Source: a virus (taxonomy: Duplodnaviria; Caudoviricetes). Taken from it: DNA of 30,414 bases. The stretch lies in IMG/VR virus record IMGVR_UViG_3300037789_000017, positions 1-30,414 of that record; one strand, given 5' to 3'. Below, in pieces: positions 7,355 through 30,166 of this stretch; position 1 is the stretch's first letter; each line of letters opens with the position of its first letter. A program made the translations under genes and the position numbers. Below the pieces are notes generated by a model, which saw only the letters and a program-made list of their open reading frames with translations, made no database searches and was not told the DNA's origin.

Positions 7355-7372
7355 TTGGGTTCCACCATTGTA
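7355..7372 (+). promoter_or_regulatory. Putative phage RNAP promoter (phiOR-like, right end)
   Basis: TTGGGTTCCACCATTGTA; one of 8 copies of consensus TTRRGKBCCACCATTGCA. Confidence 0.7.
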
Positions 7373-8009: not shown

Positions 8010-8193
8010 TCCGCTCGTAGCATCCGAACCAGCCCGCCACACGCGCTCACGCATACGCGCACGCACGAGCTATCCACGGGGGAAATGCAAGGTTGCATAG
8101 GTCTAGCTGTTGCTGGACCACGGCAAGGCACAGCATAAAACCTAAGCAAAACAGCGGCTTACAAGAAAAATGCACCTAGATGCAAAAAAGGTG

Positions 8194-8222
8194 TTTACAT
8201 CTCGTTCGCCAAGCTGCATAAC
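8194..8222 (+). promoter_or_regulatory. Host sigma70-type early promoter
   Basis: -35 TTTACA (8194-8199), 17-bp spacer, -10 CATAAC (8217-8222), with A-tracts upstream resembling an UP element. A -10 lacking the final T is common in alphaproteobacteria. Confidence 0.65.
8208..8220 (-). promoter_or_regulatory. Putative operator TATGCAGnnTGGC overlapping the early promoter
   Basis: Reverse complement reads TATGCAGCTTGGC; the same motif recurs at 6738, 9438, 12509 and 16611. Confidence 0.55.
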
Positions 8223-8228
8223 TGTCTT

Positions 8229-8600
8229 ACCGAAACGACGGGGCGCCACGCTCCACCGGGTCGGGATTCCGAGGGGCCTGAGCGCAAGCCCGCCCTGAGG
8301 TGGCAACCGGTGCGGCAAGCAAGGCCCGGCGGGAAGGCCCTTCGATATGGCCCGAGATAGGTGGAAGGCCTTACGCGGTTCAAGGCGGGGTGACCTGCAG
8401 GATACGCGGCAGACATAGCGGGACGAACCCGCACCATAGCAGGGGCCAGCCGCCCGAAGACATATCACCGGCTGGGCGTCGAAACCGAACGCGGCATTTG
8501 AAGCAAAGTGTCGCCCAGAGGGACTAGGCGCAGGGGAGTGGGACCGCCTTGATAGGGGCATCCACAATGGCCATGCAGAGCCGCTTCCACTTGTTCGGTC
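8229..8600 (+). ncRNA. Putative large structured leader RNA of unknown class
   Basis: No credible ORF. Nested complementary segments: 8361-8366/8585-8590, 8375-8379/8580-8584, 8380-8388/8544-8552, 8394-8398/8439-8443, 8418-8422/8428-8432, 8446-8452/8469-8475, 8512-8515/8527-8530, 8254-8259/8307-8312. The 5' end is inferred from the promoter. Confidence 0.55.
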
Positions 8601-8665
8601 CAGAGCTATGCCATGTGGCATTTGTCGCTCTGCTGATGAGGCCCAGAAGGCCGAAACCGAACAAG
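8590..8665 (+). ncRNA. Hammerhead ribozyme, type III (cleavage after C8600)
   Basis: Stem III CTTGTTCGG 8590-8598/CCGAACAAG 8657-8665; GUC site; stem I CAGAGC 8601-8606/GCTCTG 8627-8632; core CTGATGA 8633-8639; stem II GGCC/GGCC; GAAA 8653-8656. Confidence 0.93.
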
Positions 8666-8676
8666 GGGAGAGACCC

Positions 8677-9435
8677 ATGGCCAAAGCTGGCAAAACCTTC
8701 ATCATCTACGACGGTCCGTCATTGCTGGATGGGGAACGTATCATCGTCCTAGCTCAACAGGGCAGCACGAACCGCAAGACTGGCGGTATGATGCAGACCT
8801 ATATCCTTCGTGCTGACATGGACCCGATCACCGCAAGCCGCACCGGGGCTGATTTCTCGATCTGTGGCAACTGTCCACACAAGGGCAAGGCACACGACGG
8901 GGACAGCGGACAAGCCAAGGATCGCACCTGCTACGTTACGCTGGCCCATGGTCCGCTTGGCAAGTGGAAGGCATGGCAGCGCGGGGCTTACGAGGCTATC
9001 AACGGCCATGCCGCCATTGCTGCAGCCGGGGCCGGTCAGATGGTCCGCATTGGCACCTATGGCGACGGGGCCGCAGTGCCCTCTTACATCTGGGACAGCT
9101 TGTGCTCCGATGCTACCGGCTGGACCGCCTACACCCACCAGAACGGGGTGGACGGGGCCGCGACCGATCCTAAGCGCTACATGACCAGTGCTGAAAGCGA
9201 AGGCCACGCACAAGCTGCATGGGCCATGGGTCAGCGGACGTTCCGTGTGATCGCTGACGTTGCTGACGTGGTCAAGGGCAAGGAAATCTTGTGCCCTGCC
9301 AGTGAGGAAGCTGGGATGCGGACCACCTGCGAGAAATGCGGTCTCTGCGCTGGGGCAGCGGTCAAGGCGAAGTCGATTGCGATTGTCGCCCATGGCACCG
9401 CCAAGCGCAAAGCGAAGGCCCTTGTTGCGGCGTGA
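8677..9435 (+). CDS. First early gene: Cys-rich, probable Fe-S/radical-SAM-like enzyme
   Basis: ATG 8677 with SD GGGGAG, 252 aa. Motifs 'CGNCPH...CYV', 'VRIGTYGD', 'YTHQ', 'CPAS...CEKCGLC'. The family call is from memory of similar phage proteins. Confidence 0.7.
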   Translation: MAKAGKTFIIYDGPSLLDGERIIVLAQQGSTNRKTGGMMQTYILRADMDPITASRTGADFSICGNCPHKGKAHDGDSGQAKDRTCYVTLAHGPLGKWKAWQRGAYEAINGHAAIAAAGAGQMVRIGTYGDGAAVPSYIWDSLCSDATGWTAYTHQNGVDGAATDPKRYMTSAESEGHAQAAWAMGQRTFRVIADVADVVKGKEILCPASEEAGMRTTCEKCGLCAGAAVKAKSIAIVAHGTAKRKAKALVAA

Positions 9436-9436
9436 T

Positions 9437-9453
9437 CTATGCAGACTGGCAAA
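9437..9453 (+). promoter_or_regulatory. Putative operator, 17-bp exact repeat of 16610-16626
   Basis: CTATGCAGACTGGCAAA, intergenic in both places. Confidence 0.6.
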
Positions 9454-9520
9454 GGCGAAACCGTCCAGCGATGGGCGGTCTGGCCGGGATGGGTTCCCGG
9501 TCACTGATGAGCCAACCCAT
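9454..9520 (+). ncRNA. Hammerhead ribozyme, type II with pseudoknot (cleavage after C9480)
   Basis: Stem II GGC 9454-9456/GCC 9511-9513; GAAA 9457-9460; stem III CCGTCCA-GCGA-TGGGCGG; GUC site; stem I TGGCCGGGA/TCCCGGTCA; CTGATGA 9504-9510; tail AACCCAT 9514-9520 complements ATGGGTT 9489-9495. Confidence 0.93.
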
Positions 9521-9533
9521 AGGAGAGAAAACC

Positions 9534-10622: not shown

Positions 10623-10949
10623 ATGAGCACCAACAAAATCCGCACCCGTCGCCGCACCATCCGCAAGCTTCTGGATGGTCTCGAGGGGCGCTTTGTGTCT
10701 GTCACGTTCGCCAAGAAAGATGGCACCATCCGCAAGCTGACGATCCAGCCCCACGCTGTCGCCACACACCTCGCCGTGAACCCTTCACAGGCCGGTCTCA
10801 AGGCTGCCCGCACACGTCTCGAGCGTTACCCGAACCTGCTTCCCGTCTATGACGTGGCCGCTGGCCGGATCAAGTCGATCAACCTCGACAAGGTGTCTTC
10901 GATCCGCGTGGACAAGTCCGAACTGCTTGTCATGGAGGGTGCTGCCTGA
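10623..10949 (+). CDS. SH3/Sm-like beta-barrel protein (WYL_2-like)
   Basis: 'FVSVTFAKKDGTIRKL...VYDVAAGRIKSINLDKV' pattern; SD GAGG. Confidence 0.7.
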   Translation: MSTNKIRTRRRTIRKLLDGLEGRFVSVTFAKKDGTIRKLTIQPHAVATHLAVNPSQAGLKAARTRLERYPNLLPVYDVAAGRIKSINLDKVSSIRVDKSELLVMEGAA

Positions 10950-13609: not shown

Positions 13610-13679
13610 GAAGCGTATCTACTTGCAGCGTTTGTTGCGGACGTTGTTGCAGATGATGCAGCAACACGTTGCATATGTT

Positions 13680-13768
13680 GCGGGTGTGGTGGAACTGGTA
13701 GACACGCGGGATTTAGGTTCCCGTGCCTTTTCAATGGCTTGCAGGTTCGATCCCTGTCACCCGCACCA
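13680..13768 (+). tRNA. tRNA-Leu (anticodon TAG), 89 nt, CCA encoded
   Basis: Acceptor GCGGGTG/CACCCGC + ACCA; D-loop TGGTA; anticodon arm CGGGA-TTTAGGT-TCCCG; long variable arm; T arm GCAGG-TTCGATC-CCTGT. Confidence 0.95.
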
Positions 13769-13780
13769 AGCGCAGAAGAT

Positions 13781-13798
13781 TTAGGTTCCACCATTACA
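13781..13798 (+). promoter_or_regulatory. Putative phage RNAP promoter
   Basis: TTAGGTTCCACCATTACA consensus copy. Confidence 0.6.
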
Positions 13799-13834: not shown

Positions 13835-13868
13835 AAAGCCTCGGCATATTCGCCGGGGCTTTTTCTTT
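13835..13868 (+). terminator. Rho-independent terminator after the tRNA
   Basis: AAAGCCTCGGC-ATATTC-GCCGGGGCTTTTTCTTT. Confidence 0.85.
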
Positions 13869-13943
13869 CGCTCGACATTCTCCAATCCGCATAAGATTGG
13901 AACGATCCGCAACATCTGTTGCTGCAACACGAGGAATACACGC

Positions 13944-16607
13944 ATGAACCACACCCTCCGTCGCCCCGAAGAGCAACTGGCTGCAACATACGGGGAGGCA
14001 CTGGCTGCCGAGCTGGAGCTGGAAAGCAAGATGGTCTCGCTCGGTCGGGATCAGGTACGCAAGGCCGTTGCTGCCGCCCGTGAGCGGGGCAACGAGAGTG
14101 GCACAGGCTATGGTCGCACACTCGTCGGCATGTCCGTGGTCACCATCGCCGAAGCCATCGAGCGCTTCAAAGAGAAGGCCAAGCAGGGGGCAGGACGCCG
14201 CCACATCGCACTCAAGTACCTCGATCAGGTAGACGCTGACGTCGCGGGCTTCATCGCCATGAAGGTGGTGGTCGATAGCCTGACCGGGAAGCGTCAGCTC
14301 CTGCAGCGTGTCGCCATCCACATCGGTCGCCGCATTGAGGACGAGGTGCGCTTCACCCGGTTCAAGGATACCGACGCCCGTATGTATAACCGTGCCCTCG
14401 AACGTGCCAAGAAGGGTGGGTCCTACCACCGCAAGAAGAGCACCATGGCTGGCTATGACCGCCGCTTCAACGAAGACGAGTGGACGCCGTGGCCGGAGCA
14501 GGATTGTCTCCACCTCGGGGCAGCTCTGGTTGACATGATCCAGCAGACTGGTCTCGTCGAGATTGGCGATGAGGTGCAGACACGCCGTGACACGGTGAAG
14601 ATACTGCAGCCCACGCAGCGGCTGATGGAATGGATCGAAGCTGAGTGCGCCCGCTCTGAGATGCTGCACCCTGCCCACATGCCGATGGTTGTGAAGCCTC
14701 TCGACTGGACTGACCCGTTCAACGGTGGCTACCTGACGCAGGACGCACAAGGCCGCAACGCATTGGTCAAGTCGCCCAACATGAATTACCTGTCTGAGCT
14801 GGCCGACCACGCAGACCAGATGCCGATGGTCTACGAGGCGGTGAACGCACTGCAGGCTACCCGGTGGCATATCAACCGCGACGTGATGCAGGTGATCGCC
14901 AAGATGTGGGACCTCGGCCACCCTTTGGCTGGTCTGCCCTCCCGCGAGGACATTCAGTACTGCCCTTGCCCTGTCTGTGGTGAGAGCATCCCTCTGCCGG
15001 GGCTTCACACCAAGACGACAGGAGGTGAACACGCCTGCCTCGAGGACAACGAGGAAGCGCTGCGTGAGTGGAAGCGTGAGGCCCACCATCACCATGCCTC
15101 TAACGTGTCCATGCGATCCAAGCGTCTGGCCCTAGCCAAGGCTCTCCGCATCGCTGAGACCTACGCTGACTACGAGGCGATCTACTTCCCGTACCAGCTC
15201 GACTTCCGGGGCCGGGTCTATGCCATCCCCTCGTTCAACCCGCAGGGTAACGACGTGACCAAAGGTTTGCTCCAGTTCGCTGACGCCAAGCCTATCGAGG
15301 ATGGTCTGGCTGCTGGCTGGCTGGCTATCCACGGTGCCAACGTCTTCGGCTACGACAAGGCAGCGCTGGCTGATCGCATCGTGTGGGTCGAAGAGCGTGA
15401 GCAGGAGATCGCAGCATGTGCGGCTGACCCTTTCAGCAACACCCTCTGGCAGGAGGCCGACAAGCCATGGCAGTTCCTCGCCTTTTGCTTTGAGTGGGCA
15501 GGCTTCATGGAGCAAGGCTTTGGCTACCAGTCACGCCTCGCTGTGGCTCTGGACGGGAGCTGCTCTGGCATCCAACACTTCTCTGCCATGCTGCTCGATG
15601 AGACCGGGGGCAAGGCGGTCAACCTGCTACCATCTGAGGTGCCTGCTGACATCTACCAGCGGGTTTGTGACAAGGTCGTGGAGAAGCTTGAACGCATCGG
15701 TGGTGAATTGAGTTCCACCATTGCAGCTAAAGCTTGTTCTTCAGATGCCTCCTCCTCCTCCCTGAAAGGAGGAGAAGCTGAAGCTATTGCTGAAGCTATA
15801 GCTGTTCAAGCTGAAGCTAGAGGTTCTTGGGACGAGGAGGTCTACGCTGCAGCTTGGCTGCGCATGGGACTCAGCCGCAAGACCACCAAGCGTCAGGTCA
15901 TGACCCTGCCTTACGGGAGCACACGCTATAGCTGCCGTGACTACACGGTCGAATGGTATCGGGACCAGCTCAAGGCTGGCTTCACTGACCCGTTCGGTCA
16001 GGGCCAAGCGTTCGGTGCCTGCTTGTTCCTGTCCGACTTGATCTGGGACAGCATCGGCGAGGTGGTCGTAGCTGCACGTGACGCTATGGGCTGGCTGCAG
16101 AAGTGCGCCAAGGTCGTAGCCAATGAAGAGCTGCCGGTATACTGGACCACGCCTGTCGGGTTCCGTGTCATGCAGCAGTACAAGAACACCAGCAGCCGCC
16201 GCGTGAAGACCAAGCTCGGCGATGCGGTCGTGAAGCTGTCCCTCGCAGAGGAGAAGAGCACCATCGACAAGCGGCGGATGGCCAATGCTATCAGCCCGAA
16301 CTTCGTCCACTCGATGGACGCCACGCACCTCGTGATGAGCGTGTGCTACGCCAAGGACAATGGCATCAACCACTTTGCCATGATCCATGACAGCTTCGGC
16401 TGCCATGCAGCAGACACGAACATGCTGGCTGCCTGCCTGCGTGAAGCGTTCGTCGATCTCTACAGTGACATGGACGTGCTCGAGGACTTCCGTCAGCAGA
16501 TCATCCGTCAGGTTGATGAAGGCGAGAAGGACACAGTCCCAGCGATCCCACCCAAGGGCAACCTGTGCTTGGATGAAGTTCGTGGCTCGGACTTTTTCTT
16601 TGCCTAG
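13944..16607 (+). CDS. T7-type single-subunit DNA-directed RNA polymerase
   Basis: ATG 13944 with SD GAGGA. Motifs DFRGRVY, 'DGSCSGIQH' (A), 'RKTTKRQVMTLPYG' (B), 'PNFVHSMDA', 'IHDSF' (C) and C-terminal DFFFA. Confidence 0.98.
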   Translation: MNHTLRRPEEQLAATYGEALAAELELESKMVSLGRDQVRKAVAAARERGNESGTGYGRTLVGMSVVTIAEAIERFKEKAKQGAGRRHIALKYLDQVDADVAGFIAMKVVVDSLTGKRQLLQRVAIHIGRRIEDEVRFTRFKDTDARMYNRALERAKKGGSYHRKKSTMAGYDRRFNEDEWTPWPEQDCLHLGAALVDMIQQTGLVEIGDEVQTRRDTVKILQPTQRLMEWIEAECARSEMLHPAHMPMVVKPLDWTDPFNGGYLTQDAQGRNALVKSPNMNYLSELADHADQMPMVYEAVNALQATRWHINRDVMQVIAKMWDLGHPLAGLPSREDIQYCPCPVCGESIPLPGLHTKTTGGEHACLEDNEEALREWKREAHHHHASNVSMRSKRLALAKALRIAETYADYEAIYFPYQLDFRGRVYAIPSFNPQGNDVTKGLLQFADAKPIEDGLAAGWLAIHGANVFGYDKAALADRIVWVEEREQEIAACAADPFSNTLWQEADKPWQFLAFCFEWAGFMEQGFGYQSRLAVALDGSCSGIQHFSAMLLDETGGKAVNLLPSEVPADIYQRVCDKVVEKLERIGGELSSTIAAKACSSDASSSSLKGGEAEAIAEAIAVQAEARGSWDEEVYAAAWLRMGLSRKTTKRQVMTLPYGSTRYSCRDYTVEWYRDQLKAGFTDPFGQGQAFGACLFLSDLIWDSIGEVVVAARDAMGWLQKCAKVVANEELPVYWTTPVGFRVMQQYKNTSSRRVKTKLGDAVVKLSLAEEKSTIDKRRMANAISPNFVHSMDATHLVMSVCYAKDNGINHFAMIHDSFGCHAADTNMLAACLREAFVDLYSDMDVLEDFRQQIIRQVDEGEKDTVPAIPPKGNLCLDEVRGSDFFFA
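15708..15725 (+). promoter_or_regulatory. Putative phage RNAP promoter inside the RNAP gene
   Basis: TTGAGTTCCACCATTGCA, followed by the AGCT repeat tract. Confidence 0.65.
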
Positions 16608-30148: not shown

Positions 30149-30166
30149 TTAGGTTCCACCATCCCA
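30149..30166 (+). promoter_or_regulatory. Putative phage RNAP promoter (start of late genes)
   Basis: TTAGGTTCCACCATCCCA variant, at the T7 phi6.5-equivalent position. Confidence 0.6.

What the first reader, a model, noticed from the sequence alone, without database searches (positions are those of the whole stretch)
8229..8600. ~370-nt structured non-coding RNA as the first transcript, with its 3' end cut by a ribozyme
Seen: between the predicted host promoter and hammerhead 1 there is no credible ORF but many nested helices. These include TCAAGGCGG 8380-8388/CCGCCTTGA 8544-8552, GTGGAA 8361-8366/TTCCAC 8585-8590 and CCAGCCG 8446-8452/CGGCTGG 8469-8475, enclosing a multi-hairpin junction. 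I do not recognise the family. Inference: a discrete phage ncRNA released at the start of infection. It could be a put-like antiterminator that lets host RNAP pass the terminator at 13835-13868 ahead of the RNAP gene, a decoy for a defence system, or a ligand-sensing switch.
Basis: partly seen in the sequence, partly recalled or inferred. Interest (0 to 1): 0.85.

Follow-up and report, generated by a model that had tools for sequence, protein, structure and literature searches.

The report
Modular ribozyme-trimmed phage leader RNA
The first stretch that this marine T7-like phage likely transcribes is a non-coding leader made of short swappable pieces and ending in a hammerhead ribozyme predicted to cut it free, and one conserved piece of no known RNA family sits where related phages carry the host's "keep transcribing" signal, so it may be a new anti-termination RNA.

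Summary
Partly confirmed. 8229-8600 is a non-coding, U-poor leader between a host-type promoter and a well-formed type III hammerhead (predicted cut after C8600) in a temperate T7-like phage. It is not one conserved 370-nt fold. Folding is near chance (z -1.0 to -1.4), the 9-bp long-range helix is a chance-level match, and near-identical phages lack the 5' 173 nt or replace the whole leader.

What is conserved is modular: a 5' hairpin, a ~45-nt module A (8439-8483) in four other T7-like phages and prophages, a module B before the ribozyme, and the ribozyme. None except the hammerhead matches Rfam.

Four alphaproteobacterial T7-like prophages carry their host's rRNA boxA in the leader. In one, boxA follows the same 10-nt flank that precedes module A. 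Leaders with module A lack a good boxA.

Best reading (0.45): a cis-acting antitermination leader, later trimmed by the ribozyme, as RNase III is thought to trim T7's leader. Rival (0.25): a released decoy RNA cassette. One metatranscriptome contig of a relative ends 7 nt before the cut site, a weak hint. The element is not a put member, and a riboswitch is unlikely.

The parts
8195..8228 (+). Predicted host sigma-70-type early promoter (-35 TTTACA at 8195-8200; -10 near 8217-8224); +1 predicted at about 8229
   Evidence: Sequence; same layout and ACCGAA/ATCGAA start in relatives L006, L043, L023, L105, L289 and L309 (printout); not reported by the strict scan
8229..8264 (+). 5'-terminal hairpin with one unpaired first base; a start-proximal hairpin of variable sequence is seen in related leaders
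   Evidence: Fold z -2.03, 8 of 200 shuffles; alignment; shared with near-identical relatives that diverge after 8264
8266..8438 (+).
   Evidence: DNA run X4 record 10 joins 8265 directly to 8439; X4 record 9 has other sequence before 8415; X3 record 4 has 8286-8415 followed by other sequence
8439..8483 (+). Module A: conserved ~45-nt element (purine run, 6-bp stem, conserved loop); no Rfam family
   Evidence: 91-93% identical over 55 nt in L034 and L198, present in L037, diverged in L043/L206; three compensatory pairs, all from L043
8484..8526 (+). Variable linker, with a poor boxA-like stretch at 8492-8504 (8 of 13 matches to the host boxA) that is not conserved
   Evidence: of the 23 substitutions listed for run X8 over 8415-8593, 17 fall in 8484-8526
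8527..8588 (+). Module B: conserved element just before the ribozyme (GGGAG/CUUCC base helix, CAA bulge, UGGC/GCCR hairpin with variable loop, optional inner hairpin)
   Evidence: Shared with L037, L198 and partly L006; nearly unchanged in X8/X9/X4; predicted pairing only moderate (0-0.76)
8590..8665 (+). Type III hammerhead ribozyme, predicted cleavage after C8600
   Evidence: Complete core and three stems, z -3.77; equivalents with changed stems end the leaders of L043, L206, L198, L006 and L126
8677..9435 (+). First gene, phrog_2554, unknown function, flanked by the two hammerheads
9453..9521 (+). Type II hammerhead after the first gene (predicted cut after C9480)
   Evidence: Rfam RF02276, 46.9 bits, above the gathering score
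13835..13868 (+). Intrinsic-terminator-like hairpin between integrase/tRNA-Leu and the RNA polymerase gene (ATG at 13944); the predicted barrier for an antiterminator
   Evidence: an equivalent lies just upstream of the polymerase gene in G004

Best explanation
8229-8600 is a non-coding leader, built of short interchangeable modules, at the predicted start of this temperate T7-like phage's first host-polymerase transcript, and it ends in a type III hammerhead predicted to cut it off after C8600; its conserved module A likely acts in cis to make host RNA polymerase resist termination on the way to the phage polymerase gene. SHOWN by sequence comparison: the modular make-up; the exchange of whole leaders between a fixed promoter and a fixed ribozyme; the absence of a credible ORF; low U content; host-matched rRNA boxA in the leader of four related prophages; no good boxA in leaders with module A. 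INFERRED: host polymerase starts near 8229; module A folds on the nascent RNA and binds the elongation complex or a host factor, standing in for boxA-NusB/E; the modified polymerase reads through terminators such as 13835-13868; the hammerhead then removes the used leader and gives the first mRNA a new 5' end, the job of the RNase III site R0.3 in T7.
For: (1) Slot. Prophages L123, L125, L126 and L140 have boxA 40-65 nt after the predicted start; in L125 and L126 it matches the host's own rrn boxA plus extension at 18 of 19 nt. (2) L126 runs promoter, short leader, boxA, hammerhead, first gene. Its boxA follows a 10-nt flank that also precedes module A in L034, L037 and L198 (p 0.008-0.015 each, uncorrected, 11 comparisons). 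(3) Of 12 leaders scored, 5 with module A reach at most 8 of 13 against host boxA with its TTTGA core, 4 without module A reach 10-11 of 13, and 3 have neither; by hand one-sided Fisher p is about 0.07, and the leaders are related. (4) Module A lies 30-49 nt after the predicted start in 4 of 5 carriers. (5) It persists across phages whose terminases are 41-81% identical to the window's, with different first genes and no shared early protein found. (6) U is 12.6% against 19.1% in the window; only 0.13% of sampled 372-nt windows are as low. (7) In LUZ100, host polymerase is proposed to read through a terminator after the integrase to reach the polymerase gene (PMC10134795, passages).
Against: No functional data. 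A strict boxA pattern hit 6 of 63 post-terminase regions on the sense strand and 6 of 63 on the reverse strand (5 against 1 among the 24 regions of GC 0.5 or more), so boxA is not general. G004, the closest complete relative, keeps the terminator but its leader has neither boxA nor module A, and close relatives in X3 and X5 replace the whole leader. Module A's covariation comes from one sequence (L043), in a register I chose by trimming, and that stem has about zero predicted probability in L043's full leader and 0.2 in L034. The other copies are so similar that recent recombination could explain them. A promoter nearer the polymerase gene is not excluded. Likeness of the window's own 5' end to the host rrn start is nil (p 0.57).
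Confidence: 0.45

Rival explanations
1. The leader is a released small RNA that works in trans as a decoy or sponge against a host defence or regulatory protein. The slot between promoter and ribozyme is an exchangeable RNA-gene cassette under diversifying selection.
For: Whole-leader replacement between an almost unchanged promoter and ribozyme (365 nt replaced by 234 nt in runs X3 and X5) and at least four other arrangements among close relatives. The RNA would have defined ends: a 5' hairpin with one free base and a ribozyme cut. It would be the first RNA made after DNA entry. RNA-library contigs of a relative cover the leader as a separate piece in 2 of 2 RNA runs laid, one ending at 8593 with an adapter-like tail.
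Against: No match to any Rfam family except the hammerhead at E up to 10, no tRNA or tmRNA likeness, no tandem copies. The fold is not unusually stable in any of 7 leaders (z -1.03 to +1.64). L034 carries module A with no hammerhead found, so release is not required for its retention.
Confidence: 0.25
2. The leader is mainly a spacer, like the RNA ahead of T7 gene 0.3. It is GC-rich and U-poor so that it is transcribed without pausing and is then discarded; shared modules reflect recent recombination among phages of one host group.
For: Chance-level folding and helix counts; length varies from 168 to 372 nt; each module is missing from some relatives; T3/T7 have promoters A1-A3, a non-coding stretch and processing site R0.3 before gene 0.3 (PMC3276506, passages).
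Against: Substitutions in close relatives concentrate in the linker and spare modules A and B. Module A keeps fixed loop letters in a diverged copy and a fixed place after the start. Module B's stems stay while its loop changes.
Confidence: 0.2
3. Module A is conserved at the DNA level, as a protein-binding site, origin or packaging signal near the genome end, and the RNA fold is incidental.
For: Very high sequence identity with little covariation; location near the left genome end.
Against: It occurs once in the genome and differs from the repeated putative phage-polymerase promoter. It always lies downstream of the start on the transcribed strand. It is shared by phages whose RNA polymerases are only about 40% identical.
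Confidence: 0.06
4. The leader is a ligand-sensing riboswitch that controls the early operon or the hammerhead.
For: A possible pseudoknot in module A (4 pairs, intact in 4 of 5 copies but with 2 mismatches in the window). The leader's 3' end can pair alternatively with 8359-8367 or within module B.
Against: No terminator in the leader. The first gene's ribosome-binding site lies beyond the ribozyme. Downstream genes differ among carriers. The alternative helix needs the optional block. No Rfam riboswitch match.
Confidence: 0.04

Closest known systems
rrn-type (boxA / NusB-NusE) antitermination leader
   Same: Promoter-proximal untranslated leader; related prophages carry the host's boxA in this slot; a similar ACCG-type start.
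   Different: The window has only an 8 of 13 boxA-like stretch that is not conserved; module A stands there instead.
HK022 put RNA (PMC9378689, passages)
   Same: Proposed working mode: a protein-independent RNA element near an early promoter (putL promoter-proximal, putR about 270 nt downstream) that lets host polymerase pass distant terminators.
   Different: put is about 70 nt with two stem-loops and specific residues, in lambdoid phages of E. coli. Module A is about 45 nt with one supported stem, in T7-like phages of alphaproteobacteria, and is followed by a ribozyme. No activity has been shown.
T7/T3 left end: promoters A1-A3, non-coding leader, RNase III site R0.3
   Same: Same order of host promoter, non-coding leader, processing site and first gene (PMC3276506, PMC4517105, passages). 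A T7 A1 leader of about 390 nt is recalled, not checked.
   Different: Processing here is predicted to be by hammerheads; the leader holds conserved, exchangeable modules; the phage is temperate (integrase, MarR-like regulator, tRNA-Leu).
Hammerhead ribozymes flanking genes in phages and prophages (Perreault et al. 2011, PMC3088659, passages)
   Same: Two hammerheads flank the first gene; proposed there to process long transcripts.
   Different: The passages read address the mRNAs, not a conserved RNA released upstream of the first ribozyme.
Phage RNA decoys (pseudo-ToxI repeats, RNA anti-CRISPRs; recalled, no paper read)
   Same: Early, non-coding, variable between close relatives.
   Different: No likeness to a host antitoxin or CRISPR repeat in Rfam, and no tandem copies.

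Membership tests
Hammerhead ribozyme type III (8590-8665) | CUGAnGA and GAAA core, NUH cleavage triplet, stems I and II closed, stem III open | tested here: met
Hammerhead ribozyme type III (8590-8665) | Rfam RF00008 gathering score | tested here: not met
   18.2 bits against 48.5, on a partial alignment that missed the long stem I; the L198 equivalent scores 33.1
Hammerhead ribozyme type III (8590-8665) | Self-cleavage | not testable with these tools
   Only a weak contig-end hint
put RNA | About 70 nt with two adjacent stem-loops | tested here: not met
   One 6-bp stem supported in module A; a second conserved stem was not found
put RNA | Sequence likeness to known put elements (5' AGACG duplex, G35, A64) | tested here: inconclusive
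   Compared by eye with the residues quoted in PMC9378689, no likeness seen; no put alignment was run
put RNA | Located downstream of an early host promoter | tested here: met
   +30 to +49 in four carriers, +212 in the window; starts are predicted
put RNA | Factor-independent antitermination through the beta-prime zinc-binding domain | not testable with these tools
   Needs transcription assays
rrn/nut boxA leader | boxA matching the host consensus | tested here: not met
   8 of 13 in the window, altered in the X8-type relative; met in L005, L309, L049, L123 and L125, L126, L140
rrn/nut boxA leader | Phage-encoded N-like partner travelling with the RNA | tested here: inconclusive
   None of the five small early ORFs of 35-108 aa tested found a match in any fetched locus; three carrier records are fragments
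tmRNA / tRNA-like RNA | tRNA-like domain and tag frame | tested here: not met
   ARAGORN finds only tRNA-Leu at 13680
Any Rfam 15 family (riboswitches, RAGATH motifs, large ncRNAs, other ribozymes) | Covariance-model match | tested here: not met
   Searches (E up to 10 on 8100-8750; four carrier loci): hammerheads only, plus two sub-threshold miRNA chance hits
   No full-length homologue beyond near-identical strains (X2); the 5' strands of the long-range helices are absent from relatives that keep the 3' strands

The most novel reading that the evidence does not exclude
Module A (with module B) is a new class of cis-acting antiterminator RNA that replaced the borrowed rRNA boxA in a lineage of temperate T7-like roseophages. 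The promoter-to-hammerhead slot is an exchangeable RNA cassette in which phages swap alternative polymerase-modifying or decoy RNAs, each cut free by a ribozyme after use.
Probability: 0.25. Interest if true: 0.85.

Novelty: new variant of a known kind. Interest (0 to 1): 0.58.

Why it matters
Among the papers read, HK022 put is the only protein-free antiterminator RNA of a phage, and how temperate T7-like phages get host polymerase past the terminator before their own polymerase gene is an open point raised for LUZ100. A 45-nt motif, natural variants with and without it, and relatives that use host boxA in the same slot make this testable with a simple reporter. The result would also give phage hammerheads a concrete role: trimming a used leader or releasing an exchangeable RNA.

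Tried and rejected
Cultured phages: no real DNA match to the leader (one 25-nt chance hit; with L043's leader: one chance hit). Plasmids: 3 hits; the best, in Novosphingobium, reads by eye as the reverse strand of a coding region, has no Rfam match and was rejected.

Pattern scans gave mostly chance hits, judged by context. Real leader hits were 1 of 2, 1 of 4 (22), 3 of 22 (26), 1 of 6 (27), 1 of 4 (30), 1 of 19 (31), 3 of 18 (59) and 2 of 4 (60), all falling on the same five records. The covariance model R1 found only its training sequences plus L206 in 200 sources and 1 of 151 genomes of the Shimia family. The terminase search found 2 of 401 such genomes; G025's hit is not followed by a phage left end.

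HDV-like, twister, twister-sister and pistol folds were considered by eye from recalled consensus and did not fit. An 11-nt repeat shared by 8480-8490 and the hammerhead's 3' strand is not conserved in relatives and is treated as incidental. The rrn row in alignment A3 had wrong coordinates and was ignored; the comparison was redone. The stem I probabilities used a wrong index and were ignored.

RNA-contig 5' starts (170-171 nt before 8415, about 13 nt inside the estimated start) were not accepted as transcript ends, because a DNA contig in X3 starts 169 nt before 8415. X9's 3' stop at 8569 is shared with DNA run X4. Missing RNA cover at 8594-8674 is uninformative on its own. Contig depths were not used to rank expression.

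Literature searches listed no paper whose title or abstract start describes this motif or boxA leaders in alphaproteobacterial T7-like phages; most subscription journals are not in the library, and supplements were not read.

Full report
CONTEXT. The window is a 30,414-nt linear virus record with T7-like gene order: internal virion protein, tail fibre and terminases, then a non-coding gap, small early genes, MarR-like regulator, integrase, tRNA-Leu, single-subunit RNA polymerase and replication genes. Its first early gene (8677-9435, phrog_2554) is 79% identical to one in a Shimia prophage and about 60% to Roseobacter phages CRP-403 and CRP-118. The host is therefore inferred to be a Rhodobacteraceae bacterium and the phage temperate.

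OBSERVATION. The named helices are exact complements. None of four overlapping ORFs has a PHROG match. The hammerhead at 8590-8665 has a complete core, a GUC triplet ending at 8600 and z -3.77. The leader as a whole does not fold better than chance to a convincing degree: z -1.44 and -1.03, with perfect helices of 6 bp or more numbering 20 against 18.8 in shuffles. The 9-bp helix 8380/8552 is matched by 26% of shuffles and has about zero predicted probability. Six related leaders give z from -0.47 to +1.64. The leader is U-poor, 12.6% against 19.1%. Rfam finds nothing but a weak hammerhead hit, and ARAGORN finds no tmRNA.

WHAT IS CONSERVED. Relatives were gathered through the first gene (32 viral loci, 1 genomic), the terminase (80 and 55), the polymerase (80) and eight pattern scans. 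No full-length homologue exists among them. Module A (8439-8483) recurs in L034 (Shimia prophage), L037, L198 and L043, plus L206, which is 97% identical to L043. L034, L037, L198 and L043 all lie downstream of a T7-like terminase, 41-81% identical to the window's. In these four the module starts 30-49 nt after the predicted start; in the window it starts at +212. On a five-row alignment its 6-bp stem shows three double-sided changes (4 of 500 shuffles as high). All three come from L043, I trimmed the input so that this register aligned (an earlier alignment gave another), and the folding model does not predict that stem in L043. Structure is therefore suggested, not established. Module B (8527-8588) recurs in L037, L198 and partly L006. 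Of seven leaders compared, four end in a type III hammerhead (window 372 nt, L043 253, L006 about 210, L198 168), two show none (L005, L034) and one is cut off by its contig end (L037).

CLOSE RELATIVES SHOW A CASSETTE. Six of 15 listed runs' worth of contigs were not all laid: five distinct runs besides X2 were examined (X3, X4, X5, X8, X9), with X2 near-identical to the window. In DNA run X4 one contig joins 8265 directly to 8439 with one other letter on each side, which restores the G-rich flank seen before module A in all other carriers. The 173-nt block 8266-8438 is therefore optional, most simply an insertion in the window's lineage. In X3 and X5 the stretch 8226-8590 is replaced by 234 other letters between an almost unchanged promoter and ribozyme. 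Other contigs keep the 5' hairpin and diverge after 8264, or keep 8286-8415 and continue into L037-like sequence, or have other sequence before 8415. The one predicted to form (8361/8590) competes with a local helix of module B that an X4 variant (8539 T to C) would strengthen.

RNA EVIDENCE (weak). Two metatranscriptome runs hold contigs of the last-named relative that cover 8415-8593 (X8) and 8415-8569 (X9). X8's contig ends 7 nt before the predicted cut and runs into 14 letters that I recognise from memory as the Illumina adapter, while a DNA contig sharing its 8574 variant crosses 8600 (X4 record 12). Both RNA runs also stop at 9454, at the second hammerhead, where DNA run X3 goes on to 9531, and an X9 contig begins at 9493, 13 nt after that predicted cut. 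Against over-reading: these are contigs, without strand or true ends; X9 has some cover upstream of the promoter; and a DNA contig in X3 starts at nearly the same 5' place as the RNA contigs.

WHAT THE SLOT DOES IN OTHER PHAGES. The Shimia rRNA leader carries boxA. T7-like prophages of Chelatococcus, Rhizobium, Agrobacterium and Brucella pseudintermedia carry boxA 40-65 nt after their predicted early start, matching their own host's rrn boxA, in two cases at 18 of 19 nt. L005, L309 and L049 score 10-11 of 13 as well. L126 is a minimal version: promoter, short leader, boxA, hammerhead, first gene. Its boxA follows the same 10-nt flank that precedes module A in three carriers. The five leaders with module A reach at most 8 of 13 with a boxA core. 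This is the main ground for reading module A as a functional stand-in for boxA. Its limits are clear. A strict boxA pattern hit 6 of 63 de-duplicated post-terminase regions on each strand, with enrichment only among the 24 GC-rich ones (5 against 1). Three of 12 leaders have neither element, including G004, which keeps the terminator before its polymerase gene. The exclusion is not significant (about p 0.07, by hand).

MECHANISM. Most likely (0.45): host polymerase starts near 8229; module A on the nascent RNA makes it termination-resistant, so that it can pull in the genome and pass 13835-13868 to reach the polymerase gene; the hammerhead then trims the leader. In LUZ100, most transcripts stop at a terminator after the integrase, and occasional read-through is the proposed route to polymerase expression (PMC10134795, passages). 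HK022 put keeps acting on terminators 10 kb away without remaining tethered (PMC9378689, passages), so a ribozyme cut after the element need not abolish such an effect. No small early protein of the window was found near module A in other carriers, which favours a host partner or none. Rivals are a released decoy cassette (0.25), a discarded spacer with recombination-spread sequence (0.2), a DNA site (0.06) and a riboswitch (0.04).

COMPARISON WITH KNOWN SYSTEMS. The hammerheads are ordinary members of their class, and flanking of phage genes is described (PMC3088659 and PMC6765202, passages). The promoter-leader-processing-site order is that of T3/T7 (PMC3276506 and PMC4517105, passages). Short 5'-leader RNAs have been mapped in Pseudomonas phages, including T7-like LUZ19 (PMC10914365, passages). 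The boxA consensus was checked in PMC5725501 (passages). The element may work like put or an rrn leader, but it fails the membership tests of both. Modules A and B match no Rfam family, and ten literature searches listed no description of them. Earlier AI notes of this scan describe similar promoter-leader-hammerhead layouts, boxA leaders and swappable cassettes in other genomes; they are unverified leads, and none holds this sequence.

VERDICT. A real non-coding, ribozyme-bounded leader, but a mosaic of modules and not a single new 370-nt fold. The new part is a small conserved motif in an exchangeable slot that elsewhere holds boxA. New variant of a known kind; interest 0.58.

Noticed in passing
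window 7355-7370, 13780-13795, 30151-30162: Repeated motif AGGTTCCACCAT (exact at 13783 and 30151, partial at 7358; also after the terminase in L043), a likely phage-polymerase promoter. The copy at 13783 lies upstream of the terminator and the polymerase gene, as in LUZ100's proposed feedback loop.
   Followed up: partly
window 13630-13680 and 13905-13930; also 8087-8113: Clusters of GTTGC/GCAAC half-sites and a TGTTGCTGCAACA palindrome around tRNA-Leu and before the polymerase gene; candidate operators for the MarR-like regulator.
   Followed up: no
L123, L125, L126, L140 (leaders after the terminase); L005, L309, L049: Temperate T7-like prophages of alphaproteobacteria carry their host's rRNA boxA, with matching downstream letters and similar start sequences, in the first leader: apparent borrowing of rRNA antitermination.
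   Followed up: partly
window 8677-9435; L043 4593 onward: The hammerhead-flanked first gene is itself swappable: phrog_2554 here, a different cysteine-rich gene in L043 between nearly the same two ribozymes. phrog_2554 relatives also occur near genome ends of mycobacteriophages and in large roseophages.
   Followed up: partly
window 10623-10949: Small early protein with a weak WYL_2 (Sm-like) match, E 4e-4; possible nucleic-acid binder. Not found in the fetched loci.
   Followed up: partly
L043 4253-4505: The leader holds three copies of a GCTGGATAGC hairpin-loop word and several GATGG words, another repeated module absent from the window.
   Followed up: no
L136 6885-6901 and window 8272-8288: A 17-nt exact match between the window's optional block and the leader of a Roseomonas T7-like prophage (E 0.16-0.19 alone, but in the same genomic slot).
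   Followed up: partly
G001 contigs C1 and C5: One Shimia genome holds two T7-like prophages, one with boxA (L309) and one with module A (L034).
   Followed up: partly
L198 1001-1360; L044 7050-7500: Long short-unit tandem repeats upstream of the early promoter in L198; about 66-nt tandem repeats inside an ORF after the terminase in L044.
   Followed up: no
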